This document shows positions 41,901 to 63,499 of a stretch of 64,000 bases of DNA, in pieces. The position numbers and the translations under genes were made by a program. Origin of the DNA: Antedon mediterranea (taxonomy: Eukaryota; Animalia; Echinodermata); assembly GCF_964355755.1 (NCBI RefSeq), contig NC_092677.1, positions 23,361,175-23,425,174 on the forward strand, in the 5' to 3' direction. Each line of letters starts with the position of its first letter. Within the stretch, counting starts at the first letter, position 1. The notes under the pieces were generated by a model. It had not been told where the DNA came from and did not search any database. It saw nothing but the letters and a program-made list of their open reading frames with translations.

Positions 41901-44900
41901 ATACCATTCACTTTGATCTTAGCTCCTGGACTTCCAGGCTTGATTTCAACTTCACCATCACTGTTTGAAACTATTGCATGTTTCTTCTGGATGCTAAAAC
42001 AAGGAAACAGACATATGCCATTTTTAAACTTAAAATGTATGAAAATGATTCCCTGAGGTTGAAAAAGCTCCCAAATTCTTAACCAGTAAAATCAATTCAC
42101 ATGCACTTTAACGAACCCAGTTCATCAATTAAGATGAGTATGAGTAGGTGGGGGGGGGGGGGGTGTCGTGTTTACCCCAGTCAGCTGGTTCACAAAATAG
42201 CCCCTGTGTCACGGATATCTGATAGGGCAGTGATTATTTTTACTATTGGTAAACCTTGGCCTAAAGACATAAAATAAAATGAAAATAAACACATTCGGTA
42301 TACTAGACTTTTCAGAAAACCTGAAATCCCAGCCCAAGGGTGTTCGGTATTGGGAAAGTTGACTGGACTCCCAAATACCTTATTAAATCAACAAACAAGA
42401 GTCAAATACAGTATTTTGAATATATTTTTTATTTCTTGCTACCTAAATATACCACATTTGTTATAAACATTTTTTTTAAGATTAAAAAAGTTGTAGTTCC
42501 AAAAAAAAATATTTAAAATACATTACCTCAAACCATTAAGTGTAATAGTTGGTTGAGGGTCAGCATCTTTACGTCCGAACGTTGTTTCACTAGAGCCAAG
42601 GAAATGACAAACAACTCCTGACAATTGTGGATCTTCATTTAGGTTCAATAAATGTGGTTCTTTCTTCTTTCTACTTGCGGTCAAATCTCTTTCATTATTT
42701 TCACTTACATCCTCAGCCCTTTGTTGTTCAAGCTTTTACAAAATAAATAATATATCTTTCATGTTTATATAATAACAATCTCCGTTAACAGTAAGTCTGT
42801 TCAGGCTACAATCGACTTTCTTACTTCTTATTACAAACCTTACTCAATGATGTCATTGCTACATTTTTACATTTCTGTTTAAACTGAAGGTTTTGTGAAT
42901 AGAAAACTTAGTAGCAAAGGTATTTTAAGTTAACAATTTATAATAGCACCCTTTGCAAAAAAACAACCTATGTTTCATATAAGTTTCGTATATCGCGTCG
43001 TTTCATATAAAAACGTATACGAAAGACAGGAAGTAAAACAGGAAGTTAATTGCAGTATACGGCCGTATACGATCAGTATACGCTCGTATATGACCCACAT
43101 ACGGCTCGTATATGACCCGTATACGGCCGTATATTACTCGTATACGGCTCCTATATGATCCGTATACGACTCGTGTACGAGACGTATACGACTACTTGAC
43201 CACAAAACCTCCATTAACTGTCTAATCTAAACAAATTCCCGAATTAATTACAATTGTATGAAACGGAGTATTATCACTTGTTGCAATTAAGACCGAAACA
43301 ACAACGACAATACGCCGATCGGCTGCTTACGCAAAGCAAGGATTTCCCTTTTTAAAGTTCTTTAGAAACACCACGAGTCGTCGCTCAAGCGGGAAGAGTA
43401 GGCCTAGTCTAGCCTACTACATGAACACTGTAGGCTTACTAATGCATTGACGTCAAACAAAAAATTACGTAAGGGCAAAATTCGCTAAATCGTTTTATAA
43501 ACGTTTTACTCAAAAGGTACATAAAGCAGGGAGTTGTAAAATTATTTATTATTATTTTACAACTCCCTGCATAAAGTTACTTTCAGTAGTGATTTTAACC
43601 ACCTAATTTATATATTAATTAAATTCATTTGTTATACAGAACCTGTATTAAGGGTACACATTCGGAATCCAAACAAATTGAGTAAATTTCCCTAGTAAAT
43701 TAATATAATTAGGCCTATTTGGTATTTTTTGTTTGTATAGAGGTTTCCCAGAAGGAGGGGTTATACTGTAATTAGTTATTTAGGTTAAATAATTTGCTCC
43801 GAACATTTTAAAACATACACAGTACGGTACTGGATTCTGTTCTTAAGAACATTTACAAAGAACGATTGAGCGTCGAAACTATAAATAGACGATGGAGAAT
43901 AATTATACGATACGATGAATCAATACATGAACCAACTGAACTTCTAAATATAGTGTTCGGTTAATCGTACAAAAGGATGCCGACCTCTAACCCGGCCCTC
44001 CGTGTTGTTATCTCGGCGCGTTTGAAGCTGATCGACTCGAATTTTTTTTAACCTAACAATAATTGTAACAAGTTTGTACAGTAATGGTTCATAAACACAA
44101 CATCGATCAAAACAGTACTGGTTTATACTATGGTTTAAACATAATAATAACCGAATTTACACAATGTATTACATTTTGAATGTAGTCCTACAGTGTTAGG
44201 TTAAATTCTCTTTGTGGCTAATATAGGCCTACATTCAAACATTATTTGTTTGTTTCTTTAATTTAAATAACTGCATTTCCGCCTTGTATAGGCCCACACA
44301 TTAAATAGGGTGGGTTTAGTATTTTTTTTATTAATTTGTTTGTTAATTAGCATAACATAATGTATCATAAATTATCGTATGACGAATGTTGTTTAGATTT
44401 TTTATTTTTTCCTGAAAATAAATATAAATACATAGAATTGACCAGGCTTTTAGGCTTTCTGGTAAGGTAGAATGCAGAACAATTTCAATAATTTCAGCAG
44501 AAAAGAGGAAACACCGTAAACTTTGTAATTCTGTGCCGCGCTTGCAGACAGCACGGCATTTTAACAAAAACCTATTTAATTGAAGCAAAACAAAACAATG
44601 TACAGTACGTTGTTATTGTATGTCTTGTATTGTATATTGTATTGATCTTTAACAGCTTGGACGTGTTTGTCCACAAAAAACGTTTTCACTTTGTGTATCC
44701 GGTGATGATTTGACCACCAGAGAAACGTTCAAAGGAAAACAACACCTCACGCGGAAAGCACATCGGGGTGATAGGATTTCCCCATTTAGGCCTACACCAC
44801 TCGATCAAAACCGCAACACCGGCGTTCAACGCCCGTCTTTATTCAACAACTGTGCGTGGTTACACACCGTTGCGGTGATGTAAAAACTTCCAGGGTAGGC

Positions 44901-45565
44901 TTACTTCGGCCCTGTCCCCCAACCCTTCGGGGCGTTGAAGCAGCGCGAGTTAATCGAGTGACACAGTAGGCCTGTGATTTTTACCTAATAAAACCATATC
45001 AATTTTACTTTGAGTATGCCCTTCGTCTTAATATGGCCTTTTGCAATGCTATTCAAAAACCCTGAATACAGTTTAATGCAATCTCATCAATTACGTTAGT
45101 TAAAAGCAAGGAAAAGAGGCTACTAAAGTATCATCAGTACAACTTTTATAATAGGCCTATACATGATGTTATATTCTCCAAACATCATCACGCGATTTAA
45201 TATAGCCTTCTAATAATATATAATACAAAATAATAATGTGTTTTACGGTAGGTATTGTTAGGGTTTATTTAATTGATTTATCCAAAGGAAATTTACTGAC
45301 AAAAATGACAATACGAGTATCAGTGGATTAGTGATTGGTTTTGTAGATTAAGAGTAATCATGTATTTAAATTACATGTTGTACTTGTTATATTTGGAGAA
45401 GGAGAAGGAGGGGAATGAATGAGTTTTATTACATGTTACCGTATGTGTAGATTAAGTATGTTTTTGTCTATCTTGTGCTTTCATTTATTACCGTATATAT
45501 TTTTGTTGGACGCACCTTCAAAATGTGAAGTGTGCCACTGTTACAAAAGTAAAGTTCCGAAATAA

Positions 45566-45625
<60 letters not shown>

Positions 45626-48600
45626 TAACCATCCCGCAACTGACTTTAGTTACTGGAGAGTAAAGAATGGTTATAATCCAACTAATTACCTATTTTCCCC
45701 AAAAATGTCAAAGATCATCATTGTAATCTAATTTCATCTAAAGTAGTGAATACTTTGGTATTCATAACATTTAGAACAAAGTATTCTTCTCGAAATCATT
45801 TCCGAAATTAATAGATTATTAGAGTTTATTTCGGAATACCTTTGAAGATCAACATTGGCGGTTAGAGTCTAAGAACGCGTTGAAGCAAATCTAACTGTCA
45901 GTTGTTTATATGCCCAAGCAAAATCAGAAAGGGCTTTTGATGTGCATTATATAAACACGGCATTGCTCTCATTCACTCATTGCATTATTTATTACAAATC
46001 ACAAACAACCTTTGCCTGAACAAAAATGAGCACTCGTGAAAATAGTCAGGAGAATGGGCCGTGGATTGATGTTATGAAAGCGAAATATGGGAATCAACCC
46101 TTATACGCAGGGTCACAGATTTCCACGGTAGACAGCCTGAGTTTGCTGATGGCATATTGCCTTGAGCACAACGCAACAGAACGTAATATATCTAATATTT
46201 TAGATATAATACAACTTCATTTGCCAAAGGAATCAACAATTCCAAAACATCTAAGGTCGTACTACTACCTAAAACAAGATTACGACATAGGGAAAAAAGA
46301 AACAATTAACAAACATCCCATATGTAGTCATTGCGGCTATCTGTCGGAAGATGGGATGGATGCAACAAGTTGTTCTATGTGCAAGAGGTTGGGTACATTT
46401 ACCAACGAATCTTATTTTATCACATTGGACATCAAAAGCCAACTAGAAGAATTATTTAAAGGTAAGTTTGAATTTCTTTCGTCTTGCCTTTATACTCGTT
46501 AATATTTACTACACGTGTATAATATACAGTATTAGGGCAATTTAAGGAGTATGAATTGTAAATAAAACTGAAATTGTAAACCGCAAATTCTTGATGAGCG
46601 AGGATGAACTAATAATATGTATTTTTGTACTATACTTAGGCCTACAAAACTCCGAACGTTCACTTTCTAAAAATTTATTTTGATCATGTCACTTATTGCC
46701 AATTGTTTGCACGCACCCTTTGTGAAATTGAATAGTTATATAGTAGGATTGCCATATAATGTGGGGCTTTTGGTTAATATTTGTCTTCTTTTTACCCAGA
46801 TCCTGCCGTGGTAAAGGGATTGTCTGTCAATAAAACATCGGAAGATGGGGTAATTCGGGACATTTATGATGGAGAAATATATAAACGCCGAAATACTTCA
46901 ACGGACACATTGTTGCTAACATTAACTTGGCATTTTGACGGTGTGAGTGTATCCAAAAGTTCGAAGCAGTCGATTTGGCCTCTTCATGCGGTCATAAATG
47001 AACTGCCACCAAAAAGAAGGTAGATTTTTGTGGGCTTTTTTATTCACTCACTCTCCCCTTTACCGCTGGACCACTGTTCCTCATGTAACCGCATTTTAAA
47101 ACTTAGATTAACTATTTTGATGTTTAATGTTACAGGTTCAATAAGAATCGTATTCTTATGTTTGGCCTATGGTCTGGAGACAGTAAGCCTCAAATGCCAT
47201 CGTTCATGATACCATTGACGCCCATTATTAACGATCTGTATAACAATGGTAAGAAATATAATTTGTTGTAATGTTTACGTTTCTTTCTCTTAATTTACGA
47301 GTTTGCGCCAGTGTTGGTCAAACATTGTATTTGTAACGTGTTGTTCCAATAATCAAAATATTAGAAAGCAGAAAAGGTGTTCGTTTACCACGGACTAACA
47401 CTTTATAGGCCTACTGTATTAATTAGGTTAGTGGCCGGAACTAAACACCGTAGCGTAGGGATGATTTCCGGACACCATGTTATTTATTTAAGCCTATTAA
47501 ATTCCTAGAAATGCATATCGGTCCGTGGAGATCGGTCCATGAACTATTTTCCACTATTATATGTTCGCGCAACTCAAAAGCGTCAGCTTATACGCATGCG
47601 TATTCATTTTCCAATTTCCAAATCCCACTCTTAGGAGGCATGCGTCGTGTAAGCTGAGCTGAGGTGGTGAGGTGATGATTCGCGCAGCGCAAACAAATTC
47701 GCCTTTCCGATTTTTCGGAACATGAATACGCAATACTGTAGTATAAAACCTTGCGCCTACATTGCTGGTTTGCTTATCGTTTCCAGCAAATTTTGTCAAA
47801 TCGTATAACATATGACCGGAGTGGGGGTTTGGGGTGTAGACTTCCTCCAAGTGTTAGAACGAAGACGACTAACAGATAACATTAATAATAATAGTTAGGC
47901 TAGACTAGAGGCCCTCCATCGGCCCTACTTTGTCTCTACGTTCTGAACTAGGCCTACACTCTTTTTGGCCCTAGACTAGTCACTAGTGGTGGTGTATGTA
48001 AGCTAGTGTTTTAGTGCGACTAGGCCTATGTTAGACAAGTAACTAACTAAAGTAATAATTAATATAGTATAACCTAGCTAGGCCTAGGCCTAGATATAGA
48101 GACAGCATAAAACAAAGAAGGTGGTATAAAATTACAAATATCTATGATTATTTAGTATAGTAGCATGTATTTTGAAGTTGATTCTTTTTAGTGGTTTAAC
48201 ACAGTGTAAACTATAGGTAGGGATACCGAGAGCTGACTCCATTTTCATTACCACGATTAAACAGCGCGCACGTTACTATGCGCGCAATGTCATTGACGCG
48301 GTGTTTTTTTACTTTGGTAAACACTTTTTATTAGGTAATTGTTCTGAAAATAAATAAATTATAAATATATCCTTTTGAGTATATATTTATTTACCTATTA
48401 TTCTATAAGATCAAGTATTTTTTATTTCCATTTCATTCAACCAAAAATGTGAATATAGTGGTTAAAAGATCGTTATCGCCTAGCGCGTATAGCTTTTGTT
48501 TACTACGAAACCCTCGGAAGGCTCAATGACCTACCATTTCAACCTTATTTTTGTAGTTGAGCCTCTTATGACCTCAAAATGTTTTTTATTCCTACACCAA

Positions 48601-51600
48601 GATAATATAGTTCCACATACCATGTGCTTGTTACTAAGAAAAATATTAATTTTAACTGCTAAAAAAACAATTTTATCCCGATATGAGGCCTTTATGATTC
48701 GAATATTTCATAGTAACAACCCATATACCATAAAAAATATCCGTTTAGTCCATTTTTTAAATAATTTTTGAAAAATTCCGAGGGGCTCAACTACAAAAAC
48801 GCCATTTTATGGTATGATGTCATCGCAAGCCAATCAAACCTCCGCTCCGCAAGTCCCACGGTTGAACGATTTTGGATTCTCGCCCTTTGATTGGTTGACG
48901 CCATTCAACACACAGCGGAATAATTTTCTCGCGAGTGCCGTGAAGTCACATGGTGTCAGGCCTGTCCAATTACACAGGAAAATAATGCATTGAAATTCTT
49001 CGAACGAGGTTAAATAAACACTCTTTTTTATACAATAAATAAGTAATATCATATTTTATTGAATTTTACAATGTTGATATATAAAATATGTTACTTAAAA
49101 TCGTGATTTTATATAATTATTTTTACGAAAAATGACTAGTTCATACAATTGTCGACTGAGGGCGCAATTTGTTTATATCGTTCGTGGCTAAAAACGATCA
49201 TTTTCGGCGATGTTTTAAACCCTATATTTCGAAAAGTACAAGTCATATTTTCATAATTCTTTCTTTATTATAATATTGATACAAAATACTAACAGGCAAT
49301 GTATAATTTGTTTGAAAAATATTAACTTTTAATTTTACATCGTTATCCCTACTATAGGCCTAGGTTATGTAAATTTATGACATTTTATGACATGACAACT
49401 TTTAAATTAACAATTTATTAAACAATTGTTAACATTTTAAACATTTTTTTCAAACTTCACAATTTGCTTGATGAGTTTGCCAGTTAAATTTAAAACATTA
49501 TAATTTATCGTAACATTTAAAATACACTGTAATTGACCGCTTCATTGGTTCCTTTATTACTCAAAATAAACCATTGAATTGTGGTTTGAGAGTGATTACA
49601 ACAGCTAAAATTGTTTATTTGCCTTTTTAATTATGTCTGCTGCCTTTGTCTTGATTTTCTTTGTAACACTTTGTATGGCTAATTGTTTATATCTCATTTA
49701 TATACTGTACTTATGCATAGTACTGTAGTTATAATTGTTGTCTGCCTTTGGAATTATTGTTCATTCCTAATGATGCTCAAAAAATAAAGATCAAAATGTT
49801 GAATCATGGCTTCCCCGTATTATTTAATATTTTTATTAATCAGTTTTAGATATTAACATGATTTCCCACATGATCAATAATATAGCTTAATTATCTCAAT
49901 AGTAATAGTTTATGATTAATTTTTGTATTATTCTCCTTTGTTTTAAAATATTTCAAATGAGTGACTGACACATACATGTACCTATAGACTCCCATTAGTC
50001 ATAAGTTTAACCAAAATGATAAAAGTTTAGTAATGCTGCCATCAGATTCTTAAAAACGTCATCTTGAATCTACTGTTTTATTTTGTGTTTTATGTTATAG
50101 ATATTTTATATTGTCAATTGTTTATTTTAAATAGGAATAAGCATCGGTGGACGTGAAGTTAAGGTTTTATTCCATGTAGGGACCATGGATTTGTTGGCCA
50201 TGTGTTTGACCAAAAACATGCAACAGTTTAATGGCAAACATGGCTGTGGAATGTGTGAAGTGTCTTCTGTCCGCGTACCTAAAGGAAAGGGAAGCGTATC
50301 TGTATATCCATGGATTCCTGCCAAACCCAAACTGCGTACTGCCAATGACATGATGGAGCAGGCAAAAGAAGCCATGCAAACTAAAGACTGTGTAAGTAGA
50401 CCAATAGTTTTTTTATAGAAAAGTAGTTTAGGTAGGGTTTGTTTTTTGGCAGTTATTTAAACAATTAAATTTACCTTTATTTTTATTTTATTTCCTAGGT
50501 CAAAGGAATAAAGGGATATACTATGCTATCCAAGATAACATATATCGACCCAGCTACAGACATTGTAGTCGATTACCTTCATGGTGTTTGTTCTGGCTTG
50601 ATGAAGAGCATGCTAAAAGTGTTGTTATTTGATCGCAGCAAACCGTGCTACATTGGTGATCAGATGACCGAGCTGGATGCGCGTTTGTGTGCAATCAAAC
50701 CTACTGACTGTATTACTAGAACACCAAGGTCGATTGGAGAAAATTTTGCAGATATCAAAGGTTAGGCCGAACTATTGACTTTATTTTATTATACATATTG
50801 CAGTTTTTAATCTTGTGTAAACTAAAAAAAAAAAAACTCTTCTATTTTTTCAAGGGATAAGCTAAAGCTGTTCCTGTGTTGGGTTTAAGGAACACGAAAA
50901 TAAGAAAGTATATATTATGTGTACTGTATTGTTTTTTATTAATTTTGATGTATAACGATATTAATTGATTATATTTTCAGCGGCTGAATTTCGTGCCTTC
51001 CTCATATATTATGGATGTGCCGTTTTTAAGGGTATCTTGCCAGAAGAGTATTATGTCCATTTTTGTTTGCTTTCATCTTCAATTTATATTTTAATGCAAG
51101 AAGAAATTACCCAAAATGAATTGGCAGTGGCAGAGACCAACTTACAAAAGTTTTATTACTTGTTCACTGACCTGTACGGTAAGTATTTTTAAGAGAATTG
51201 AAGAAACTATCTAGTGTTATTAAAACAAACAAAAAACAGTCCTATTTAGTAATGTTTAACAACTTTTCACATCATTGTATGGTTTTAAATTTAATAAAAA
51301 CAATATTTCTCACATCAATACTGATGTTAGAAACATGTAGTAATAGATCAATATGCCTCTTTTGTTTTTGCAGGTAAAGAAAATTGTACCATAAATTTGC
51401 ACAACACCTGTATGCATCTTGTGGATTGCGTAAGAAATGCAGGCCCTTTGTGGGCATTTGGGTGTTTTGCATTTGAAAGCAATTGCGGACAGATGGCCAA
51501 ATTTGTACGTGGCACTCGACATTGTGGGATGCAGGTAAAGCAATTGTTTCAGATTTATTTTTTTAAAATGTATATATAATATAACTTGCACTGATGAAGG

Positions 51601-54600
51601 GCTAGTGTTGGCCAAAAGCTTAGCTAATTTTAATGGATATTTATTTTTTATCTCCATTGAGATCCAGCCACAGCATTGAAATTTGTTCGATAATTTGCCT
51701 TTGAAATAACTAAGCTTTCACTTTTCAGAAATTGTGCCTCCTTCATAATATTTCATTCATTTTATTTATATATATATTTTTATTATTATTTGTTACTACC
51801 TCATTTTTCTTTAACTATGAACATTGTGCTGTATTTATATATTATGAAGGAAATAAATATTATGAAATGAAAATATAAAAATAAACAATTGTCTAATTTA
51901 AAAATCATTTTATCATATTTTTGTAGGTTGTAAACAATTACAAATATTTACAACGAGTTAAAACACTGGCAACTGAATCCAGAAGTCCTAGAGTTAAACA
52001 GCTCATTGGGAAAATGACTGGAGAAAAAACAATGTGAGTAACTTTTTTTTACATTATCACTTACAGTAATTCCTGTAATAACCATGTAATTCAGCAGTTA
52101 TGCTGCTAATTGGTTTTTTTTGTGTTATCAATAAATAACAATTAAAACCATGAATGTGTAAACATTGTTTCTGTATTAAAAGCTATAGCTCTTTGTTTAG
52201 CACAGGGCCTATTGTTAATTCGAACTTTGACTCTTCATTTTGTCAATGTTATCTTGTTGAAGCATTAAATCACTTAATAGACTTAATTTCTATTTATCTT
52301 ATCTGCCTTAGCTTTAAAACGCTGCATATTTAATATTTTTTTTAAATAGATTCTACACAGCAATTGTATACTTTCAGATTTATTTTTAAAAATGTATATA
52401 TAATATAACTTGCACTGTAAGGGCTAGTGTTGCCCGATAGCTCTGCTAAATTTCTGCCTGTTTTAATTATCGTTTTGATTTAGCTTTTCGCTTTTTTTTG
52501 TATCTCCATTGAGATCCAGCCACTGATACCCACAGCATTGTCATTTTTTCAGTAATTTGCCTTTGGATTTATAATATAACTTGCACTGATGAAGGGCTAG
52601 TGTTTTCAGAAATTGTGCCTCCTTCATAATATTTCAAACATTTTATTTATATCCAAAGACAAATTACTGAAAAAATGACAATGCTCTGGGTATCAGGGGT
52701 TGGATCTCAATGGAGATACAAAAAAAAAGGGAAAAGCTAAATCAAAACGATAAAGTAAAACCGCAAGAAAAGTTAGCAGAGCTTTCGGGCAACACTAGCC
52801 CTTCATTTATATGTATATTTTTATTATTATTTGTTACTACCTTATTTTTCTTTAACTATGAACTTTGTACTGTATTATTTATATATTATATGTTATGAAA
52901 GAAATAAATAATATGAAATGAAAATATAAAAATAAACAATTATCTAATGCTGCTAATTGGTTTTTTGTTATCAATAAATAACAATTAAAACCATGAAATG
53001 CGTAAACATTGTTTCTGTATTAAAAGCTATAGCTCTTTGTTTAGCACAGGGCCTATTGTTAATTCGAACTTTGACCCTTCATTTTGTCAATGTTATCTTT
53101 TTAAAGCATTAAATCACTTAATTTCTATTTATCTTATTTGCCAATTTTTTGTTGTTGTACCATTTTTTTTGTCAAGGTTCTGTTACACTGTTTTTATTTA
53201 TGTACCAAAAAATGATACCTGAAATTCATGCCTTCTGCTTTATATTAGCTTTAAAACGCTGCATGTTTAATTTTTTTTAATAGAGATTCTATACAGCATG
53301 TTGGTAGTAAACGACTGAATGAGGATTCTATGGACACAAAAATGGTCACTTCCTTCTTTAACTGCAAAGTTCAAAATGTTTCAAGATATTCAAAGTTGGA
53401 AAGAAAGTTTGACACAATTTACTCCGAAGATTGCAATAAGATAAAAAAAAGGATTGCCAATGTTGTCCAGTTCCGTGATGAAGAAGATGTAAAAATCGCA
53501 AGAATTAAATACTTTTTAGATGCCGATGGTAAAAATGTGGCTGTTGCGCGTGTGGCAACCATAACGTGTGAGAATGTTTATAAAGAAGGAAACAATGCGC
53601 TTTGGGTAAAAGCCAACATATGCGAAGACACTGGAAATTATGCAAAACGCATACAATTTGAAAGGTAAAATCAATTTTATCAAATCCATACAATAATGTG
53701 AACTCATTGAGCAAATTTAAACATAATATTACTAGTTAGATAAATAGCAATTCATTGTTCTTGCAGTAAATAAATTATTGTGTTTAAGTGAATGCATATG
53801 TACATTTAAGTACACCGAAAGCAAACATGAATTGTACAATTTTCATTCGATTTAATCTATAAACAGAAAGGAAAAAAATGTCAATATTTTCCATGTTTTT
53901 TTAGCACAATATAAAGATGTTTAAATATCCACATTCTTTACACTACTGTAATGTGCTTAAGCAAATTTAAACTTAATTACAAGTTAGATGAATAGAAATT
54001 CATTGTTTTTGCAGTAAATAAATTATTGTACAATTTCCATTTGGTTTGATCAATAAACAGTTGAATAACAAAAAAATTGTTAATATTTTAACACAAAATA
54101 ACGATTTTTTTTTTTTTTTTTTTTCATTTTTTAGTATTGAACTTCACATTATAAGAGTTGAAAATATCCTGAAGAAGGTTGTGTATATGGAAACTGATTT
54201 AGATGGAGGCATAGCTATTCCTATTGCTTGTAGGTGGGAACACGACTGATCTCTGTGATGGTTGCTGTTGTTCAGTCAGCGGTGTCCTATAAAATGATTG
54301 CTGTGGTTGGTTCGCATTGTTAGACCTTTGATGGTTTTCGGCAGCATGATTGTTATATTGCCACGAAGGTTCTTCCCGAGGCTGCTGTTGTTCCAAACTA
54401 GTGAAATGAAGATGAAGAAGTCAAAATGTCATATCAAATCAAAAGGTTCTTTTCAGAACCACAAAATTACAGAAAGAGATTTGAATTTGCAATTTTTATC
54501 CACGTATGGCTTAAAATAAAACACAACCACATATTGTTCTTCCATTGAAAACCCTAGATTCACTATATTCCATCTACAGAACTAATTTAAAATATCGATA

Positions 54601-57600
54601 TACCTTAGTGATTTTTGTCTAATCCTAACCATTTCTTGCCTTTTCTTGGAAATGACTTCACGGATGCTTGTCCTCGGTGTGTTTGGAAAAAGCTTTCTGG
54701 TAAAATCTATGCCAAATAAATCAAAATGTGTTAATTGCATTCAAAAACTGCACAATGTCATAACAAAACCCCATAGTAAGTGTGCGGAACAGTTTGCATT
54801 TCAAAGTGATTCTTAATAAAAAACACACATTTTTCACAAAAAAATATTAGAGATGGGAAATGCATTCAAATTAATTCTGATAACATTTTTAAACAGTGTA
54901 AAATTTGTCTCCCCTGTATAACACAGTTTAAATTACCTGTAATAGCACCCAGTCGGATTGGGTCTAAAACTTGGCGCTGGAGGCCATCTCGATTCTTGGT
55001 GGCAGAGAAAGAGCAACGATACATCTCATCTGAATCGAAAAAATGGTTCACTAAAATTCTTGTGCACTTCGAAAAAGTTGAGCTTGATCTGCATTCAGAT
55101 TGAATGTGTTCCGGAATTTTCTGCAAAATTAAAATATGGTTGTCAGTTAATAAGTTATTCCACCTTCTTAAAACAAAATTACCACAATGACAGTAATTTT
55201 TAAATACTGAATAGAATTGTATGGCTTACAAATCAACACATACTGATAATAGTTAGTGCAAAACTTACTTTTAAGAAATCATCTATCTCTTTCTGCTGTC
55301 GAGATTTCTGAGGAGGGCCTGGGGTGCGATTTTCTATCTGTAAAATAATTTCATATACTGTGCTATCTCAAATATTTTGAAATCTTTTTATTAATCATAC
55401 AATCGGAATATAATACAAATCGGAGATTTTTTTTGGTAACAAAATACTTGTTCTCATATAAAATAACAACTTTAAATTTTGGTGGCCAAAATGTCAATAG
55501 TTTGAATGAAATTACCTTGGCATGCAAACTACTTATTTGTTCCTTCATCACCTTGTTGTCCTCCACAAGAAAGTTGACCTGGGTGCAGAGTTCCTTTACG
55601 GTTCGTAAAAGTGTGCTGTGCTCATTTGTGGATACTGGTGTTGTAAATGGAGAATTTGTTGATTGCTGCAAAGGTTTGTATGGTGTTGGTCGTAATGGTG
55701 CATTTGATGATGAAGGTAAAGGTGGAGATGAAGGTAAAGGTGGAGATGGTGATCGTCCAGATGACATTGATGTTGAAGTTGATGGTGCTGGCGACAGTTC
55801 TTGTGGAGGCTCTTGTGAAGGCGAGGGTTCTTGTGAAGGTGATATTTCTCTAAAAGGTGATGGTTCTCGGGAAGGGGAAGATGCTTGTGCTTGTGGTGAC
55901 TGTGATTTGGTGGCATTTGTTTGAAACAGCTTTCCACACATTGCAAAAGCAGTGCCTGCAACATCATCTCTTCTTTCTAAAATAAACATATAAAAATGCC
56001 TGAAGAGTTTTTTTTTAAATTAATTAAAATATATTTACTCATAAAATACAATAGAGTAATAAGATCAGAACATACCTTTTCTTTGTAATGCTACTGCTGC
56101 AAACAAATAAATAAAATATATATTCATTATAATAATATATTTGTGAATATTTTGGTGTAGAAAATACATACGACACATGACTGTAGAGGAATTGATATTG
56201 ATTATATTGTTCCATAGTATATTATATACAATTTATATAAAACTTACTCATATTTTTTGTCTTCTTTTCTTTGTTTTTGTCTGAAATTTTAGATAAATTT
56301 TGAAGTACCTTGGTTATTTTTTATTTACAGTATTCTGTCCTACTTATTTACAAGCTTGTCTTTTTCAAGAATTCAAATATTTTAAAACATTCAAGAAAGG
56401 TTTATAAATTCATTTAGCTTGGCATAATTAAGACAATAAAATAACATAGAAAAATACATCAAATTGCAAGTTGACTGTTCCAACTTAAACAATCTATAAT
56501 TTTACATTGCATATCTAACCTCATTTTGCGTTGCATTACTTAAAAGTTTGCCATAAGAATAAAAAAAGGATATTGTAAATTACTTAAAATTAATTGATAT
56601 CTTACCTTCCTTTTTCTTCGCTTTTCTCTTCTTTGATTTTTCTTCTGTGGACTCTAAAGAGTAAATTAAGAAATTGTTATCAAATGGAGGAAAACAAAAT
56701 ATGATTCACTTTAGCTAACCTTTCAGGGTATTTTATTTACATGTATAATGTATGTTATTCAATAATCACCAACTATCGGTGTCAGTGATCTATTAAATCA
56801 TCCAGCTAAGGTGTACTGTATGTTTTGTTGTATTGTATATTTACAGTAGGTTTTATCATATTGCTAAAAGATTAAGGCTACTAATTTAAATAATAGATTT
56901 TAAACCCATTTTTAATATTCTGAGAATGTTTTAACTTTTTTAAGATTTTATTTACTGTTTTTTGGCTGTTTCCCAATCATCAGCATTGCTAATTTAGGGC
57001 GCTTTCTCTATATAATCTATTATATAATCACTTTCCACTCGGGAAGTGAGCCTTTCACTTCCTTTGTTCTAGCATGCATCAATAGCCTTTTATATTTTTG
57101 CAACTGTGTTCTTAATTACTAATAACTTAATTACGTTTTAGTAAGTGGTTTTCGACTTAAAACGTAAATATTGAGTACTTTGCGTGCGGAGTGAGCAACA
57201 ATGGGCTGGGGCATTTTAGCCATACAAAAATCTTGCTGTAAATATCCTAAAGTGGTCGCTAATGAATTGCCATGATCAGTGGCGTATCCAGTAGGGGGAC
57301 GGGGGGGGGCGGCCTCCCCCCCCCCCCTGATTTCGTTTCCGTCGGCACATCATCGCGGCCGTCGGCAAACAAAGGTGCCGGGGAAAAAATTAAACTATTT
57401 ATTCTGACAATAATTGAACTGTAAACATAATTCTTTTGAGTGTTTGTTTATTTACATATCATATCATCATTGATCCCTTCAGATCAACTATTTTTTAATT
57501 TCATTACATCTAACGAAACACGTAAAAAATGTGTAGCACGTACGTACGCGGTAGATTGTTTACTCAAAAGTCTTTGACCTTTACCCTAAAACCTTGTTTT

Positions 57601-60600
57601 TGCATGCAGTTGAGCCTCTCATGACCTGGGATTTGTATGTCTTCCTACGCTAAGAGATTATATAGTTCCACATGCCATGTGCTTTTTTGTCTATATTTAT
57701 TATAAGTGCAAAAAACCCGGTTTTTTTTCTCGATATGAGGCCTTTATTATTCAAAATTTTTAAAGAAAAAGCACATATATCATAAAAAATATCCATGTAT
57801 TTCATTTTTGGAACAGAATATTCCGTGAGGCTCAACTACAAAACCACCATTTTGTGATATGATGTCATCGTAAGCCAATCAAAGCTGAGCTTTTTCGCGA
57901 TTGGCATTGCTCACGGTTGAATGATTTAAGATTCTAGCTGATTTGATTGGTGGATGCGAATCACCCGCAGCGGAATGTTTTCTCTCGCGCGTGTACCATG
58001 AATCTCTCTGATCGTTACTACACAAAGTTAGAGCAATGAATTTGTCCGAATTCCGTTAAGTAAACAACTTTATATATTTTATAAGCATTTAATAACATGT
58101 TTTATTGATATTTCCAATGGTGATATATAAAATAAATTACTAAAAAACGTAATTATATGTAATTATTTTAACCAAAAATGGCGTAGTTAATAGAATTGTC
58201 GACTGAGGCCGCAAATTGTTTTACTTCTTTCGTGGCTAAAAACGATCATTTTCGGCGATGTTTTAGACCCTATATTTCGAAAACTACAAATCAGATTTTC
58301 CTAATTCTTTCTTTATTGTAATATGAATACAACATACTAACAGATAATGTTGGTTTGGTTTTAATTTTGCATCGTTATCCCCGGATATAAGACAATATGA
58401 CTATATGTAATCCTTGATCAGAGACGTCGTGTATGTACACCAATTTTGTCGGCAAATTGGCAATTCCCGCCCCGCCCCCCCCCCCCCCCCCCACTTCAAA
58501 ATCCTGGATACGCCACCGGCCATGACTAAATATAACTTAAAAAATCCAAAGGATAAATTGAAAAATATACGCGACCGGCAAACGTAGTACCAAACGCACG
58601 GACAAACTGTATTCGTAAATAAAAATAAATTTGTTAAACCAATTTAAACGTCGAGCCTTTGTAACTTTTGTTCTATATTCGCGATACTATTCGCACGACA
58701 GGCTTTATACTGGGCATTAATTAGACTTGTAAACAACCCAACGAAAGTGACCGAAATTCGAACAAAGGGGCATCGCCAAACAAGAGTGCGTACCTAGTAA
58801 ATACTGTACACGCTTTGGTGCCTGTAACTTGATACAGCCCAGATCGACGCTTGAACCGCAAGAAAATGAGTCCGTGAGTTAAAGACGTTCACCTCCCTGT
58901 TTTACTATTGGTTAAAAGAACCATGTAGGCTGGTAATATTTTTGGACAAAATTATAAAAATCGTTTTTTTTTTTTAAATAATGATTCTTCACGACTACAT
59001 TTATAGTATAAATAATAATATATAACATAATAAAGTGTATGTGTGATCATTTTTATCACAATTTGAGAGGAAAATGCAATAAAATTAATTTATATATTTT
59101 AAAAGTATAGAACATTATGCGAGTATTTATATTATAATACAATATAATACATATATCAACAAAAATACGTAATTGCAATTAATTTTTCCGCGGTCGATAG
59201 CCGGCATGCATTAATCACAATCGCAATTACTACAAAATCCTACGTTGGATCATGGAGGTATTATACCTCCATGGTTGGATGGACACAACGCAATGACATG
59301 ATAATATTTGCATCGCTTAGGCCTAACCTATCTGACGGTACATTATAATTAGGACATTCGCATTAAACGCAAAATACGATTGTTTTGCTGATTCCTATCG
59401 CGCTAAGGGAGTGTCATTTCCGGCCAATTATATGCGTGAAATATAAACAGCAATAAATTTACCTTCATTTTTCTTGTCTTTTCTCTTCTTTGATTTTCCT
59501 CCTACAGACCCTAAAGAGTAAATTGTAAAAAATGTTTCAAATGAAGAAAATTGTTTGTATAAGTATTAATTATGTACAGTTTAGTGTGTATGAAATAATA
59601 CTAGAGCAATAATTAATTATGCCATACCTTTCGTTGTTGCAACTTCCGGGGCAACTTGTGTTTCTGTAGACCCTCAATTGTAAAAACAAGACATCGTTAT
59701 TTATACTACAGTACAGACAAATATATTTTAATATATATTAAAGTTTGATCAACCAATATAGCCAACATTTTAATTCAGCTGGTCACTCGATTGCAAATGT
59801 CAGAGTTATTTGCAATAGACCACGATGTCAAATGGATCGATAAAACTCGCAAAGACACATAGTTTCATTTGTTATCTATGACGATCTATTGTATAAAAAA
59901 TAACTCGTGTAAACTTAATAAATCAGATTTAAACACGGAAAAATACGATTTCAATAACGTAGACATTTTTTTTACACCCTCCCCTCTCTAAAAAATTCCA
60001 GCATGACGAGCAAACAAAAAAGACTTAATCACACATCATCAGCAATTGATATTAATAATCGTAATGCTGGTGGTAATTTATATTTATAATCACAAGTTTA
60101 CCATCATTTCTGTTATGTATAAAAATGATTAATTTATTAAATATTACATACCACTGTCCAGATTCTTTTTAGTGTCTGAAAAAAACAACATAATTAAGAA
60201 AATTGAATAATAGATTTTATCATTAGTATAGATGTGATGGCCGTTAAAAAACGTGGCACACAATGCGCGAATAGCCCATTTTTAACCACTGGAGTTTTGT
60301 GATATGAAATAAAGTTGGCACCCTTTTTGTATTAGGAGTCATGGAATTAATTACTGCATGACGAAACATCCATCAGGGATGTGTTATTATTAAGTGATCC
60401 ATGCACGTCACAAAAAGAGCATGTGTACAGTACATTAAAAAGTAAGATAGATAGTATGCATATCAATATGACTTAATACAATAATACAATTTTAGAGTTT
60501 CACAATAAGTGCTATAAGTACATGAACAAAAAAGAATACGGGATGGGATTGATGGACAAAACTACTACATCAACATACCTCCAACTCTAACAATTTCGCC

Positions 60601-63352
60601 TTCCCAACCTCGGCTTGGCAAGATTACTCGCGTCCCGACTGCAAATGCGGCAACATTTAGTTTTAATTTTTCCGCAATTTCTGGTTTTAAATCTGTGATG
60701 GTATTATCGTCCCACTCGACGCGACACCATTCTGTAAAAAAAGTTAATCTTTATTATCAATCATTTCTTTAGTATGCTAACAGTTAATATTAATAATTAC
60801 TTGTAAGAAGTTATACAAATTCATTTCTGTACCAAACTTAAATACTAATATGATCATAGAACAGAGAATTGTGTAATAATACAATAATCTGCATTTACTA
60901 GTGACTATAAAATAGCCTAAATATGTGTCTATGTCGCATGACATAATAAATAATTAGAAAAAAAATGACTAATTAATTCACCATGCCTTAACTTGAACAA
61001 CATAATTATATAAGCAACAATGCAAACTAAACCTACTTTAAGAAATTATGTGCAATATTTATCAAATTCTGCCTATTTATAAAATATAAGTTAATTGAAA
61101 ATCCTGCCAAAAGTTTTACTTACTTTTTTCTCCAGGAAACGTCATTAGGCTAATTTCTATATCTCACCGTCAATGTGTTACATGTATTGCTTGAGCTGAA
61201 CGAATGTATAAAAAATGTACACATTTGACATATAACCAATCGTATGCAGCCCCGGCCCCGTTATTGATCGTAATAACAAAAAAGGAATTAGATCAATTGT
61301 TTAATATAAGAGGCACGCCTAACCTTTTGTTTAGTGCAGGCGTGGTTGAAAGCGCTTAGAAAAAAAACACAAAGAATGTTGCAACGATTACTGTACGATA
61401 CTCATGATTCATAGTCATATTCTTTTAAACGGTTCAACTTTATTTAGTAGCCATTTTTAATTACTTAAAATAAAAATGTGTTGTACAGTCAGTGAATCAT
61501 ATAACGCATAAAATCAGTTGATTGTGATCGTGAATTAAATGTTGGTATGTCCCTATCATTTATAATGTCTCTGAGCCTCCATACTAAATAATCGGGTTGT
61601 GGTTACTACCAGTGACGTTTATAGCTCCATGAAACCGAGAGTAGCTGTTTTCTGACTTGTACAAACTATAAACATTTTTTTTGGTATACTTTTTAACAAT
61701 AATATTTTATAGCCTATGTATAAAATATACGAACATTATTAATAGTACTTCATTCATATTTAAAAAACAAAACCACAATAAATATCCGAATCGTCCGCAA
61801 GCCCTCCACTAAACAGAGCCTCGAGATTCAAACATTCTTGGCTTGGCATGGTATCAACGCTACAAAGAAAGAAGTCAAATACGCGACATTTACCGAAGGC
61901 CGCGCATACACACTATTTTATTGTTTTTTTATAGTATTATTATCCGACCTGTAACAGTAGGCCTAAAAATAGCCTGAGTAAACAGAAGCCATGGTCAAAT
62001 TGGTAACTAGGCCTTACGCAATCAATAATTTTATTATGTCAATAAATATATCGCTACTTTTCATGTAGGAGGCCTAACTGTTGTGAAATCCATGGAAAAT
62101 TCCCTTTATGGTTTGAGCCGATCGACGCGGTGATCGTTGTTGCTGCTACCCACGTTACAAAGACAGCTGCCTTATATAAGGCCGTATACGCTCAAATACG
62201 GCCGTATAACAGCCCGTATACGCTCATATACGGCCGTATACTAGACGATATACGGCCGTATACTAGACGATATACGGCCGTATACTAGACGGTATACGGC
62301 CGGATATGGGCCGTATATGAGCCCATATACGCTCGTATAAAACAATAACGTTTTGTATACAACGTATACGAACGGATGTAGTATACTAACATATATGAAA
62401 CATAGGTTGTTTTTTTGCAAAGGGCAGTTATATATATTTTATTTATATTAGTATTGATGATATAAGTTTTTTTTCTTTTTTCTAATTTACAAACTTTCTC
62501 ATTTACAAACTACTTTCAAACTTTACTCAATGATGTCATTACTACATTTTTTCCATTTCATTTTAAACTTATAGATTTGTGAAGAAAAAAACCTTAGTAG
62601 CAAAGGTATTTTAAGTTTAAAGTGAAGAGTATTAAACAAAACTAAATTGTTACTTTTTGATCCCAGTCCATATCTGAAATAGCTTTTTGATTTGCCAGTA
62701 ACTGGGCTCTAATTTCCTCCTCCATTTCTTTCTTCATTTTGTCAATATCTTTTTAAATAAATGATTAAAAGAATATAAGAAAAGCAGTATGGTGTAATAC
62801 TAAAGTTCTGTCTACACTATCAAACTAGTTTGACAAAAAAGGTGTGATGTGCCCAAATATGGTATACCCAAATATACAATGACATCATCAAGTTCATATA
62901 TGGGCACATCACACTTATTTTGCCACACTAGTTTTATAGTGTAGATAGAGCTTAATGCGCATACTGTATAATCTTTGAAAATAGGGCATATAGTCTAGTG
63001 GTGATATGTCTGTCCACATACCAATAGAAAAAAGTCCATTTGGAATAATATTGATTTTGAATTAAATTTAAGGGGTAAATATTTTTATTCAACTCAAATA
63101 TATGTATGTTAATAAACAACAAAAATACCTTCTTGACTCATTCCTACATTTTCTGGCATCATTCCTCCTGTTAGTGATTTCTTTAGTTTGTCATTTTCTT
63201 CACGTAATTCACGGATAAGTTTATCCATAGGATTCTCATTGACTACAGCCTTATTCTTAATCTTCTTTGCTCTGTCAGCGTATCGCAATGTACCAAGTGT
63301 CTCATCATAGTTGATATCAGCAGGTGACAAGGCTGCTATCATCACAGTTTTA
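26970..63352 (-). CDS. KIF28: Kinesin-3 family KIF28/KLP-6-like protein, from the end of the motor domain to the C-terminus; gene begins beyond the right edge
   Basis: In-frame GT-AG exons 63352-63129 ([33 protein letters not shown]), 62748-62654, 42732-42527 and 41993-41851 (FHA: [28 protein letters not shown]), 41111-40968, 40265-40118, 39305-39218, 38482-38312 (DPFWEP), 37779-37657, 36993-36724, 36500-36327, 35538-35410, 33627-33574, 33194-32985, then last exon 31118-31059 or 27128-26970. The tail exons are less certain than the rest. Confidence 0.88.
27875..28219. mobile_element. TTAA-flanked MITE (Kolobok-like), copy 2
   Basis: ttaa|agatgtattgtccc ... gggacaatacatct|ttaa. Confidence 0.82.
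29094..29437. repeat. 38-bp G-rich minisatellite, ~9 copies
   Basis: (gaggaggcaagtaggagggttgggagaggatgggggct)n. Confidence 0.95.
31340..32705. mobile_element. PIF/Harbinger-type non-autonomous element
   Basis: tta|aggctggtttcctgtcgacgtaa ... ttacgtcgacaggaaaccagcct|tta; 3-bp TTA TSD. Confidence 0.88.
34340..34500 (+). mobile_element. Short L2/CR1 3'-tail remnant
   Basis: tggaat...tttaaatctctcctcaaaacacacctc...gcgctata...(tta)n. Confidence 0.55.
37173..37642. repeat. 36-bp minisatellite, ~13 copies, intronic
   Basis: (gtgatgaactgctagacatggtaacactaaaggtca)n. Confidence 0.95.
38836..39272. repeat. 94-bp tandem repeat (~4.6 copies) made from a kinesin exon 3' half plus its donor site
   Basis: Units start at 38836, 38930, 39024, 39118 and 39212. 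Confidence 0.95.
41575..41770 (+). mobile_element. Decayed RTE-clade LINE 3' fragment
   Basis: Interrupted LRW..HILRK...G.PKVMWKD...GL....A.DRKKWR motif. Confidence 0.65.
42080..42265 (+). mobile_element. SINE 3' part, opposite orientation to the other copies
   Basis: gcactttaacgaacccagttcatc...atctgatagggcagtgatt...tactattggtaaaccttggcc. Confidence 0.6.
42985..43192. repeat. Left subterminal repeat array (CGTATACG / TATACGGCCGTATA)
   Basis: Perfect palindrome GTATACGGCCGTATAC at 43055-43070 plus many half-sites. Confidence 0.9.
45567..45625. repeat. (TTA)n microsatellite after AATAAA, possibly a retroelement tail
   Basis: Seen directly. Confidence 0.85.
45948..45982 (+). promoter_or_regulatory. 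Putative TATA + initiator promoter of the transposase
   Basis: TATATAAA at 45948, TCATT about 30 nt downstream, ATG at 46026. Confidence 0.5.
46026..54249 (+). CDS. CMC/EnSpm DDE transposase (TnpD-like), ~749 aa, 10 exons
   Basis: Exons 46026-46461, 46800-47019, 47136-47248, 50135-50391, 50499-50760, 50981-51178, 51374-51534, 51927-52033, 53284-53664 and 54135-54249 total 2250 nt, all GT-AG with no internal stop. Motifs: CxxC..Cxx[60 protein letters not shown]. Confidence 0.93.
48218..49351. mobile_element. Nested MITE in transposase intron 3
   Basis: ctatagg|tagggataccga ... tcgttatcccta|ctatagg (7-bp duplication). The interior is homologous to ~57590-58381. Confidence 0.72.
54199..61145 (-). 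CDS. Transposon accessory protein with a C-terminal BEN domain, ~469 aa, 13 exons
   Basis: Exons 61145-61124, 60731-60579, 60175-60152, 59672-59628, 59510-59463, 56653-56606, 56280-56248, 56096-56076, 55976-55516, 55337-55269, 55120-54937, 54706-54604 and 54397-54199 total 1410 nt in frame. BEN-like [20 protein letters not shown]...[18 protein letters not shown]...[11 protein letters not shown] follows a Ser/Pro tract and a coiled coil. The domain call is by eye. Confidence 0.82.
57277..58518. mobile_element. Nested hAT-type non-autonomous element in a BEN-gene intron
   Basis: gccatgat|cagtggcgtatccag ... ctggatacgccaccg|gccatgac; 8-bp TSD with one mismatch. Confidence 0.85.
62180..62390. 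repeat. Right subterminal repeat array
   Basis: 22-bp unit tatacggccgtatactagacga, ~3 copies, plus variants. Confidence 0.9.
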
Positions 63353-63499
63353 CTAAAGAAAATAGAATTTATTTAGTTTGTATATCAAAGCAAAACTTGT
63401 CAAACTCATCATTATTTTTCATAATAGTAAAAATAAAATATTTTAATTCAATTTCAATCAACTCATGCCTCTAATTGCAGGTCAATCAATCAATTAGAC

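What the first reader, a model, noticed from the sequence alone, without database searches (positions are those of the whole stretch)
54199..61145. BEN protein as candidate binder of the element's own CpG palindromes (TnpA-like or anti-silencing role)
Seen: the protein has an N-terminal beta-rich module (WCRVEWDD...[24 protein letters not shown]3/Tudor-like by eye), Lys-rich NLS-like microexons, a Ser/Pro tract, a coiled coil and BEN. Both element ends carry arrays of the CpG palindrome TATACGGCCGTATA. Known: some BEN proteins bind palindromes (Insensitive; BANP, which is methylation-sensitive), and maize TnpA binds subterminal repeats and promotes demethylation. Inferred: a dimeric BEN protein recognises these repeats for end synapsis or to counter silencing.
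Basis: inference. Interest (0 to 1): 0.8.

Follow-up and report, generated by a model that had tools for sequence, protein, structure and literature searches.

The report
Feather-star transposon with BEN helper gene
A 19.5-kb cut-and-paste transposon in a feather-star genome carries, beside its transposase, a second spliced gene for a probable BEN-type DNA-binding protein that would likely dock as a dimer on the CpG palindromes repeated under both ends of the element, much as maize TnpA does; no binding was tested.

Summary
The sequence facts hold. TATACGGCCGTATA (up to 1 mismatch) occurs 8 times in 64 kb, all in two arrays just inside the ends of one element (expected 0.02). The arrays have a 22-bp period.

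The element is 42949-62424. It has identical 33-bp inverted ends that start CCC, and a 2-bp CA duplication. That matches the published animal 'TRC' branch of CACTA transposons.

It carries a transposase annotated in Antedon mediterranea. A relative of that transposase passes Pfam Transposase_21.

Converging on it is a 12-exon, all GT-AG, 454-aa open gene at the stated coordinates. That gene has:
- lysine-rich microexons;
- a Ser/Pro tract;
- a clean leucine-zipper heptad;
- a probable BEN domain.

BEN stays below Pfam's threshold (16.5 vs 23.2 bits, first half only), because an intron splits the domain and a spliced protein could not be handed to the tools. The 'SH3/Tudor-like' fold was not confirmed. 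No relative or RNA run was found.

The TnpA-like reading fits the layout but is untested. The anti-silencing part has no support beyond CpG-rich ends.

Earlier AI notes of this scan report the same two-gene design on other animals' DNA. I found no paper describing it.

The parts
42949..62424 (.). Whole element, 19,476 bp, flanked by the 2-bp direct repeat CA (42947-42948 and 62425-62426)
   Evidence: the two ends read identically for 33 bp. The CCC start and 2-bp duplication match what PMC1636069 describes for animal TRC elements.
42949..42981 (+). Left terminal inverted repeat, CCCTTTGCAAAAAAACAACCTATGTTTCATATA
   Evidence: 33 of 33 bases identical to the reverse complement of 62392-62424.
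62392..62424 (-). Right terminal inverted repeat
42987..43192 (.). Left subterminal array. It holds about 6 units of GTATACGG-CY-CGTATAY every 21-22 bp, plus two outlying copies at 42987 and 43014. CpG o/e is 2.4.
   Evidence: period 22, 6.3 copies.
62174..62374 (.). Right subterminal array, with three near-perfect 22-bp units ATATACGGCCGTATACTAGACG and degenerate copies on both sides. CpG o/e is 2.1.
   Evidence: period 22, 3.7 copies, 96%.
46026..51579 (+). Transposase gene. Exons: 46026-46460, ~46781-47020, 47134-47250, ~50089-50394, 50499-50762, 50981-51179, ~51331-51579.
   Evidence: P0001 (NCBI, Antedon mediterranea) is encoded here at 90-100% per tblastn segment. Pfam Transposase_21 scores 22.3 bits and DUF1258 24.8 bits, both below cut-off. 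The relative L001 passes Transposase_21 (34.6 > 28.6). Shared DGV.., GT.DL.A and CFAFES motifs are.
54199..61145 (-). Helper gene, predicted 12 exons, 454 aa: E1 61124-61145, E2 60579-60731, E3 60152-60175, E4 59463-59510, E5 56606-56653, E6 56248-56280, E7 56076-56096, E8 55516-55976, E9 55269-55337, E10 54937-55120, E11 54604-54706, E12 54199-54397
   Evidence: all junctions are GT-AG and the frame is open. There is no RNA support.
60579..60731 (-). Exon 2: N-terminal module WCRVEWDD...EIVRVG, fold unknown
   Evidence: (pLDDT 58.5; strands 2-7, 34-37 and 42-48, one helix).
56076..60175 (-). Five lysine-rich microexons (24, 48, 48, 33, 21 nt), 36% Lys, with KSKKRK twice. E4 and E5 are duplicates.
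   Evidence: (56602-56694 ~ 59459-59550).
55516..55976 (-). Exon 8: Ser/Pro-rich tract followed by a leucine-zipper-like coiled coil. The coiled coil covers about aa 239-272, encoded at about 55516-55611, with the last two residues in exon 9.
   Evidence: the core positions read L V L V L N M I L I.
54604..55120 (-). Probable BEN domain, split by an intron between exon 10 (54937-55120) and exon 11 (54604-54706)
   Evidence: Pfam BEN E=0.0098, first half; Atlas.
54199..54397 (-). Exon 12: Gln/Ser/Asn-rich tail and stop codon

Best explanation
The flagged gene is the second gene of a two-gene CACTA-superfamily (animal TRC-type) DNA transposon of the crinoid Antedon mediterranea. Its product is predicted to be a nuclear, zipper-dimerised, probably BEN-type DNA-binding protein that likely acts as the element's TnpA-like helper.

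Shown here:
- the ends, the 2-bp duplication, the phased palindrome arrays, the separate transposase gene and the open 12-exon frame.

Inferred:
- The protein dimerises through the zipper.
- Each dimer sits on one 16-bp GTATACGGCCGTATAC-type palindrome.
- The 22-bp spacing (two helical turns) puts successive dimers on one face of the DNA, coating about 200 bp under each end.
- This coat marks the ends for the transposase and helps pair them. Because each array lies upstream of one of the two outward-placed gene starts, it probably also regulates the element's own transcription.

Methylation-sensitive binding to the CpGs is possible by analogy with BANP, but it is the weakest step.
For: - Position: the gene lies wholly inside identical 33-bp inverted ends with a CA/CA duplication. 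The CCC start and 2-bp duplication are the published marks of animal TRC/CACTA elements (PMC1636069, passages).
- Partner gene: the transposase is annotated at this locus (P0001). Its 32%-identical relative L001 passes Pfam Transposase_21, 34.6 bits against a cut-off of 28.6. The catalytic-region motifs are shared.
- Gene integrity: 12 exons, all GT-AG, 454 aa open. Exon 8 alone lies in a 218-codon open frame in 32% GC DNA.
- DNA-binding domain: Pfam BEN is the only hit of exon 10 (E=0.0098). 17 of 30 Atlas neighbours fall in the BEN-bearing set.
- Dimer: the heptad core is L V L V L N M I L I.
- Sites: 8 palindromes against 0.02 expected, only at the two ends. 17 of 18 CGTATAY half-sites lie in the ends. 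The period is 22 bp and half-site spacings are 10-11, 20-22 or 32-33 bp.
- Precedent: TNPA recognises subterminal repeats and is required together with TNPD (PMC2613891, passages). Insv, Bsg25A and Elba2 BEN homodimers bind a palindrome (PMC4281564). BANP has a coiled coil plus BEN and needs oligomerisation to select unmethylated CGCG (PMC11472053).
- Weak hint of constraint: of the 5 shown (out of 18) differences in exon 8 of a second species' copy, 4 are third-position changes that are silent on their own. Two of the five fall in one codon and together give E to K.
Against: - No binding, expression or excision data exist. No listed sequencing run is on record as RNA.
- BEN is below Pfam's cut-off (16.5 vs 23.2 bits), and only its first half is matched.
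- The AlphaFold2 model of exon 10 alone (pLDDT 91.4) shows two helices and a hairpin, and it matched no BEN structure.
- No relative of exon 10 or exon 8 was found in 5.8 billion proteins. None was found for exon 10 among 1.84 billion representatives. So neither conservation nor protein-motif covariation could be tested.
- The transposase keeps a conserved CxxC...C..C cluster that could bind DNA itself.
- In this genome the element appears to be single-copy: flat depth of 156-187, single contigs. It holds nested repeats in introns of both genes, so it may no longer move.
Confidence: 0.5

Rival explanations
1. The transposase itself reads the subterminal palindromes through its N-terminal part with the conserved cysteine cluster. 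The BEN-like protein does something else, for example acting as a transcriptional repressor or insulator of the element, or tethering it to host chromatin.
For: A CxxC...C..C cluster is conserved between P0001 and the 32%-identical L001 ORF, upstream of the catalytic motifs. Many cut-and-paste transposases bind their own subterminal repeats (general knowledge, recalled). BEN-solo proteins act mainly as repressors or insulators (PMC4281564, passages).
Against: No known DNA-binding family was detected in P0001 or in the L001 ORF by Pfam. In the CACTA model system the repeats are read by the second protein, not the transposase (PMC2613891). A perfect 16-bp palindrome matches a dimeric reader, and only the helper has a zipper.
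Confidence: 0.25
2. The gene is a passenger or a relic. Either it is a host BEN-type gene picked up by the element, or the whole single-copy locus is an immobile or domesticated remnant, so the protein has no present role at the element's ends.
For: Depth is flat at 156-187 with single contigs over the unique parts in run X1, which suggests one copy. Unrelated repeats are nested in introns of both genes. There is no annotated protein for the gene and no relative in the databases. The NCBI transposase model is truncated.
Against: A complete start-to-stop 12-exon frame is unlike the fragmentary captures typical of CACTA elements (recalled). Both genes remain open, and the ends are 33 of 33 identical with an intact duplication. 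Earlier notes of this scan report the same helper type in CACTA-type elements of several other animals (unchecked AI notes).
Confidence: 0.2
3. There is no real gene here; the frame is a chance chain of open pieces.
For: There is no RNA evidence. The microexons are each a multiple of 3 nt, so the frame cannot verify them.
Against: The six longer exons (2, 8, 9, 10, 11, 12) join in frame through canonical sites. Exon 8 lies in a 218-codon open frame. Exon 10 hits a DNA-binding family.
Confidence: 0.03

Closest known systems
Maize En/Spm (CACTA) with TnpD transposase and TnpA helper
   Same: The transposase family is related to tnp2/Transposase_21. A second element-encoded protein accompanies the transposase. 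Short motifs are repeated in both orientations under both ends. The helper is expected to bind them, pair the ends and regulate the element's promoter (PMC2613891 and PMC1636069, passages).
   Different: - The helper here is a separate, convergently transcribed gene, not an alternative splice form.
- It shows no hit to any TnpA-type Pfam family; its only hit is BEN.
- The ends start CCC with a 2-bp duplication, instead of CACTA with 3 bp.
- The motif is a 16-bp CpG palindrome with a 22-bp period.
Animal TRC elements (SmTRC1 of Schistosoma mansoni and relatives in Tribolium and Aedes; PMC1636069)
   Same: Both have a Transposase_21-type transposase, inverted ends starting CCC, a 2-bp target duplication and extra non-transposase proteins proposed to play the TnpA role.
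   Different: SmTRC-PrA and PrB come from alternative splicing. The authors found no similarity between them and proteins of other TRC elements, and no BEN domain is reported in the passages I read. Here the helper is a distinct gene with a probable BEN domain and a matching palindrome array.
BEN-domain transcription factors: Insensitive/Bsg25A/Elba2 and BANP
   Same: All are built as an oligomerisation element plus a single BEN domain. Insv-type factors bind as homodimers to short palindromes, and BANP reads CpG-containing palindromic sites (PMC4281564, PMC11472053, passages).
   Different: Those are host genes acting on host promoters and insulators. This one sits inside a transposon, its BEN match is below threshold, and its candidate site (GTATACGGCCGTATAC) is longer than and unlike CCAATTGG or CGCG.
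PIF/Harbinger elements with a Myb-like second protein
   Same: Both are two-gene cut-and-paste transposons whose second protein is a DNA binder for the element's ends (recalled knowledge; the scan note e1-9359407 cites it).
   Different: The transposase superfamily and the type of DNA-binding domain are both different.

Membership tests
BEN domain (Pfam PF10523) | Match to the family profile at or above the curated cut-off (23.2 bits) | tested here: inconclusive
   Exon 10 alone scores 16.5 bits, E=0.0098, over profile positions 3-44 of 76, and BEN is its only hit. Exon 11 alone (33 aa) gives no hit. The spliced domain could not be handed to the tool.
BEN domain (Pfam PF10523) | BEN fold, similar to solved BEN structures | tested here: inconclusive
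   Only the first half could be folded (pLDDT 91.4; helix, helix, hairpin). Foldseek found no match at E<=0.001, and the best VIA-align Z was 3.8 with no BEN chain listed. PDB phmmer gave 0 hits.
BEN domain (Pfam PF10523) | Sequence-specific DNA binding | not testable with these tools
   Needs EMSA, SELEX or DAP-seq.
CACTA/Mirage/Chapaev superfamily, animal TRC group | Transposase of the tnp2 / Transposase_21 type | tested here: inconclusive
   The window's own P0001 scores 22.3 bits against a cut-off of 28.6, and DUF1258 24.8 against 33.1. Its 32%-identical relative L001 ORF scores 34.6 bits, above the cut-off.
CACTA/Mirage/Chapaev superfamily, animal TRC group | Conserved acidic catalytic motifs | tested here: met
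   TW.(F/T)DGV..KSSK.S.WP...NELPPK.R, GT.DL.A and HL.DCV...GPLW..CFAFES are all present in the window's exons and in L001. Which residues are catalytic is recalled, not tested.
CACTA/Mirage/Chapaev superfamily, animal TRC group | Inverted ends starting CCC with a 2-bp target duplication (PMC1636069) | tested here: met
   CCCTTTGC... is 33 of 33 identical at both ends, and CA flanks both.
TnpA-type helper (function) | Second element-encoded protein besides the transposase, inside the ends | tested here: met
TnpA-type helper (function) | Homology to plant TnpA/Tnp1 proteins | tested here: not met
   None of the exon pieces scanned (exons 2, 8, 10, 11) hit a TnpA-type Pfam family. Plant helpers themselves share little similarity with each other (PMC2613891).
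TnpA-type helper (function) | Binds the subterminal repeats and is needed for excision | not testable with these tools
   Needs bench assays.

The most novel reading that the evidence does not exclude
Animal CACTA-type transposons use a zipper-BEN protein as their TnpA equivalent. In this crinoid element it reads unmethylated CpG palindromes phased along both ends. DNA methylation of the ends would then switch the element off by evicting its own helper. Helpers of this kind would be the stock from which host BEN genes of the BEND5/BEND6 type were repeatedly tamed.
Probability: 0.25. Interest if true: 0.8.

Novelty: new variant of a known kind. Interest (0 to 1): 0.55.

Why it matters
Two-gene cut-and-paste transposons with a dedicated end-binding helper are textbook for plants (En/Spm) and for Harbinger. 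For animal CACTA-type elements the helper has stayed undefined since the SmTRC1 paper of 2006.

A BEN-type helper with a clear candidate site would do three things:
- give the BEN domain, whose origin and target logic are still being worked out, a natural protein-site pair that is easy to test;
- offer a route by which host BEN genes could arise from transposons;
- provide a case where CpG methylation might directly gate transposition.

This crinoid copy is useful because its site is a long, perfect, CpG-bearing palindrome in a regular 22-bp array.

Tried and rejected
- Whole genome: none is held for this window, so copy number and other copies could not be searched.
- Relatives of the helper:
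  - The search for homologous proteins with exon 10 and with exon 8, longer proteins only, found none.
  - The search of protein representatives with exon 10 gave 0 hits at E<=0.001 (after 8 tries that met a full queue).
  - A viral-contig scan with exon 10 and one with the L001 ORF found none.
  - The metagenome scan with P0001 gave two transposase relatives (L001, L002). tblastn with the spliced helper found nothing on them. Those contigs are short (5.7 and 2.1 kb), so this says little.
- RNA: no RNA holder is listed. X5, guessed to be RNA, covers introns evenly, and none of the 15 joints shown (152 more not shown) matches a predicted splice junction, so it behaves as DNA.
- Second read laying, on the BEN exons in organisms B and C at 80% likeness: nothing laid. 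This is no evidence either way.
- Complex prediction with two copies of the zipper piece: no verdict (score 0.09, mark 0.32). This is neither for nor against dimerisation.
- N-terminal module:
  - the AlphaFold2 single-sequence model has pLDDT 58.5;
  - Foldseek against PDB found nothing at E<=0.001;
  - the best Atlas score was 0.78;
  - Pfam gave no hit and PDB phmmer gave only chance hits.
- Exon 10 fold searches found no BEN chain.
- The genome search with PF10523 on L001's record: not held.
- The 137-aa ORF at 53255-53668 compared with the C-terminus of L001's ORF: no significant similarity. Pfam also found none.
- The 100-bp direct repeat in the flanks was considered as a long target duplication. 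I rejected this: it is 85.6% identical and offset from the ends, whereas CA/CA abuts them.
- Literature: 'BEN domain' with 'transposase' (19 papers), with 'transposable element'/'domesticated' and with 'CACTA' (2 papers). None describes a BEN gene in a DNA transposon. Subscription journals and Repbase reports were not searched.
Full report
**What is there**

The window is AT-rich eukaryotic DNA, about 32% GC. No whole genome is held for it.

The 14-mer TATACGGCCGTATA occurs 5 times exactly and 3 times with one mismatch. All copies lie at 43056-43133 or 62175-62306. Shuffles give 0.02 on average, and none of 100 reaches 8.

The underlying half-site CGTATA[CT] occurs 18 times in 64 kb: 10 in the left end, 7 in the right end, 1 inside the element and none elsewhere.

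Tandem Repeats Finder reports a 22-bp period for both arrays:
- left, 43055-43190, 6.3 copies, 79% matches;
- right, 62226-62306, 3.7 copies, 96% matches.

Half-site spacings are 10-11, 20-22 or 32-33 bp, which are whole helical turns. Each unit is an imperfect or perfect 16-bp palindrome, GTATACGG/CCGTATAC, plus a spacer of about 6 bp.

**The element**

An inverted repeat joins 42935-42985 with 62388-62438. Read base by base, the two ends are identical for 33 bp: CCCTTTGCAAAAAAACAACCTATGTTTCATATA at 42949-42981 and 62424-62392. Both are flanked by CA on the plus strand. The element is therefore 42949-62424, 19,476 bp.

A CCC start and a 2-bp duplication are what DeMarco et al. described for animal 'TRC' members of the CACTA superfamily (PMC1636069, passages read).

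The 104-bp direct repeat in the flanks (42831-42931 and 62514-62617, 85.6% identical) is offset from the ends. It is not the target duplication.

**The transposase**

Exons on the plus strand between 46026 and 50762 encode a 430-aa NCBI protein of Antedon mediterranea, P0001, at 90-100% identity per tblastn segment.

P0001 scores below the Pfam cut-offs: Transposase_21 at 22.3 bits against 28.6, and DUF1258 at 24.8 against 33.1. A 32%-identical, intronless 922-aa ORF on a metagenome contig, L001, passes Transposase_21 with 34.6 bits.

The NCBI model stops by reading into an intron. Two further exons, 50981-51179 and about 51331-51579, continue the homology to L001.

The motifs around the expected acidic residues are all present..DGV.., GT.DL.A and CFAFES. 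So is a conserved CxxC...C..C cluster upstream of them.

**The flagged gene**

On the minus strand I could chain 12 exons, every one with an AG acceptor and a GT donor, from an ATG at 61145 to a stop at 54199-54201.

The protein has these parts:
- the quoted 50-residue N-terminal exon;
- five microexons that are 36% lysine, with KSKKRK twice (two of the microexons are duplicates);
- a tract that is 22% Ser and 21% Pro;
- a 35-residue stretch whose heptad core reads L V L V L N M I L I, a leucine-zipper pattern with one buried Asn;
- the BEN-like part, split between exons 10 and 11;
- a Gln/Ser/Asn-rich tail.

Two caveats apply. There is no RNA support. Exon 1 and the microexons rest on splice consensus only; the microexons are each a multiple of 3 nt, so skipping any of them keeps the frame.

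**Is it BEN?**

Evidence for:
- Exon 10 alone hits Pfam BEN and nothing else, at E=0.0098 and 16.5 bits, over profile positions 3-44 of 76. That is below the 23.2-bit cut-off.
- In the ESM Atlas, 17 of the 30 nearest clusters belong to the set that carries PF10523, with a best score of 0.93-0.94.

Evidence lacking or against:
- Exon 11, which would hold the second half of the domain, is too short to score alone.
- The tools do not take a spliced protein, so the whole domain was never scored.
- PDB sequence search found nothing.
- A confident AlphaFold2 model of the half domain (pLDDT 91.4; two helices and a hairpin) matched no BEN chain. A truncated domain makes this inconclusive.

By eye, the stretch across the exon junction follows the BEN pattern as I recall it. 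That is recollection, not a test. I put BEN at roughly 0.8-0.85.

**The N-terminal module**

No Pfam, PDB or Atlas relative was found. The AlphaFold2 model has pLDDT 58.5, with three strands and one helix, and it has no fold match. 'SH3/Tudor-like' is therefore not confirmed here.

**Relatives and copies**

No relative of exon 10 or exon 8 turned up in 5.8 billion proteins. None was found for exon 10 among 1.84 billion representatives or in viral contigs.

Public runs of the same organism hold the stretch as DNA. Depth over the unique parts is flat (X1: 156-187 for eight contigs; one contig is at 347), and those eight contigs each differ from the window by at most one letter. That suggests a single copy, although I have no baseline.

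A second organism, coded B, holds pieces about 91-96% identical over 45634-46103 and 55495-55688. Of the 18 differences in the exon 8 piece only 5 were listed. Four are third-position changes that are silent on their own. Two of the five share one codon and together give Glu to Lys. This is a hint of constraint, no more.

A second attempt to lay organisms B and C on the BEN exons laid nothing.

Repeats unrelated to the element sit in introns of both genes: 48541-49302 and 57590-58350, plus a very high-copy cluster at 51.4-53.4 kb.

**CpG content**

CpG observed/expected values:

| Region | CpG o/e |
|---|---|
| Host flank | 0.56 |
| Whole element | 0.97 |
| Regions upstream of the two gene starts | 1.08-1.19 |
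| Coding parts sampled | 0.35-0.88 |
| Subterminal arrays | 2.1-2.4 |

Three explanations fit this pattern: unmethylated ends, CpGs kept because they belong to a binding site, or a young insertion. The data do not tell them apart.

**How it most likely works**

In En/Spm the transposase TNPD and the helper TNPA are both required. TNPA recognises the subterminal repeats and also regulates the element (PMC2613891 and PMC1636069, passages). Helpers of different CACTA families share little sequence.

BEN domains are sequence-specific DNA binders:
- Insv, Bsg25A and Elba2 bind a palindrome as homodimers (PMC4281564, passages).
- BANP has a coiled coil plus one BEN domain and selects unmethylated CGCG only when oligomeric (PMC11472053, passages).

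Here a zipper sits about 20 residues before a probable BEN domain. The only over-represented motif in the element is a palindrome of dimer-like symmetry, spaced at two helical turns under both ends.

The best-supported reading is that helper dimers coat both subterminal regions, mark and pair the ends for the transposase, and feed back on the two promoters. All of these steps are inferred. I give this reading 0.5.

The rivals are:
- the transposase reads the repeats through its own cysteine cluster, and the BEN protein does something else (0.25);
- the gene is a passenger, or the locus is a relic (0.2);
- there is no real gene (0.03).

**Novelty**

Full-text searches found no description of a BEN gene in a DNA transposon. 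I searched 'BEN domain' with 'transposase', with 'transposable element'/'domesticated' and with 'CACTA'. Subscription journals and Repbase were not covered.

Earlier AI notes of this scan report the same design on other DNA: a CACTA-type transposase plus a 'Tudor-like'-coiled-coil-BEN gene and end arrays. They name sponge-type, sea-urchin, rotifer, shark and arthropod-like sequences. I used these as leads only. One of them pointed me to the SmTRC1 paper, whose CCC/2-bp rule I then checked on this window.

This element is therefore a new variant of a known kind: a two-gene CACTA-type transposon with an undescribed class of helper. It is also a further instance of something the scan has seen before.

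Noticed in passing
42831-42931 and 62514-62617; also 40748-40947 and 63484-63677: The host DNA on the two sides of the element shares direct repeats (85.6% over 104 bp, and 74% over about 200 bp). The element seems to lie in or beside a dispersed or locally duplicated repeat.
   Followed up: partly
48541-49302 and 57590-58350: One unrelated ~790-bp repeat (76% alike) is nested in an intron of the transposase gene and again in an intron of the helper gene. It is multi-copy in the runs of three organisms.
   Followed up: no
51393-53375: A cluster of very high-copy short repeats with inverted arms. Depth reaches 173,000 in X1, against about 170 for the unique parts. It sits between the last recognisable transposase exon and the 3' ends of the two genes.
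   Followed up: no
50740-51180: The NCBI protein model P0001 ends at 50765 by reading GGT TAG across a GT donor. Splicing AAAG|gt to the acceptor at 50980 continues the frame into conserved transposase sequence.
   Followed up: yes
53255-53668 (+): A 137-codon open frame lies between the two genes. It has no Pfam hit and no significant likeness to the C-terminus of the L001 transposase. It may be a last transposase exon or nothing.
   Followed up: partly
46300-46400 (P0001 residues ~99-123): A CxxC...C..C cluster is conserved between the window's transposase and the 32%-identical L001 ORF. It is a possible zinc finger ahead of the catalytic core.
   Followed up: partly
4700-5590; 29093-29438; 37158-37642; 38818-39273: Four tandem-repeat arrays lie in the host part of the window, some at 98% identity between units. 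Several create long spurious open frames.
   Followed up: no
16046-16471 (-): An open frame has a weak, below-threshold match to the E2F CC-MB domain (E=0.0006, 20.3 bits against 33.9). It is possibly an exon of a host E2F-like gene.
   Followed up: no
L001:2146-4914: A metagenome contig carries an intronless 922-codon transposase frame of the same family (32% identity). tblastn found no helper gene on the 5.7 kb held.
   Followed up: partly
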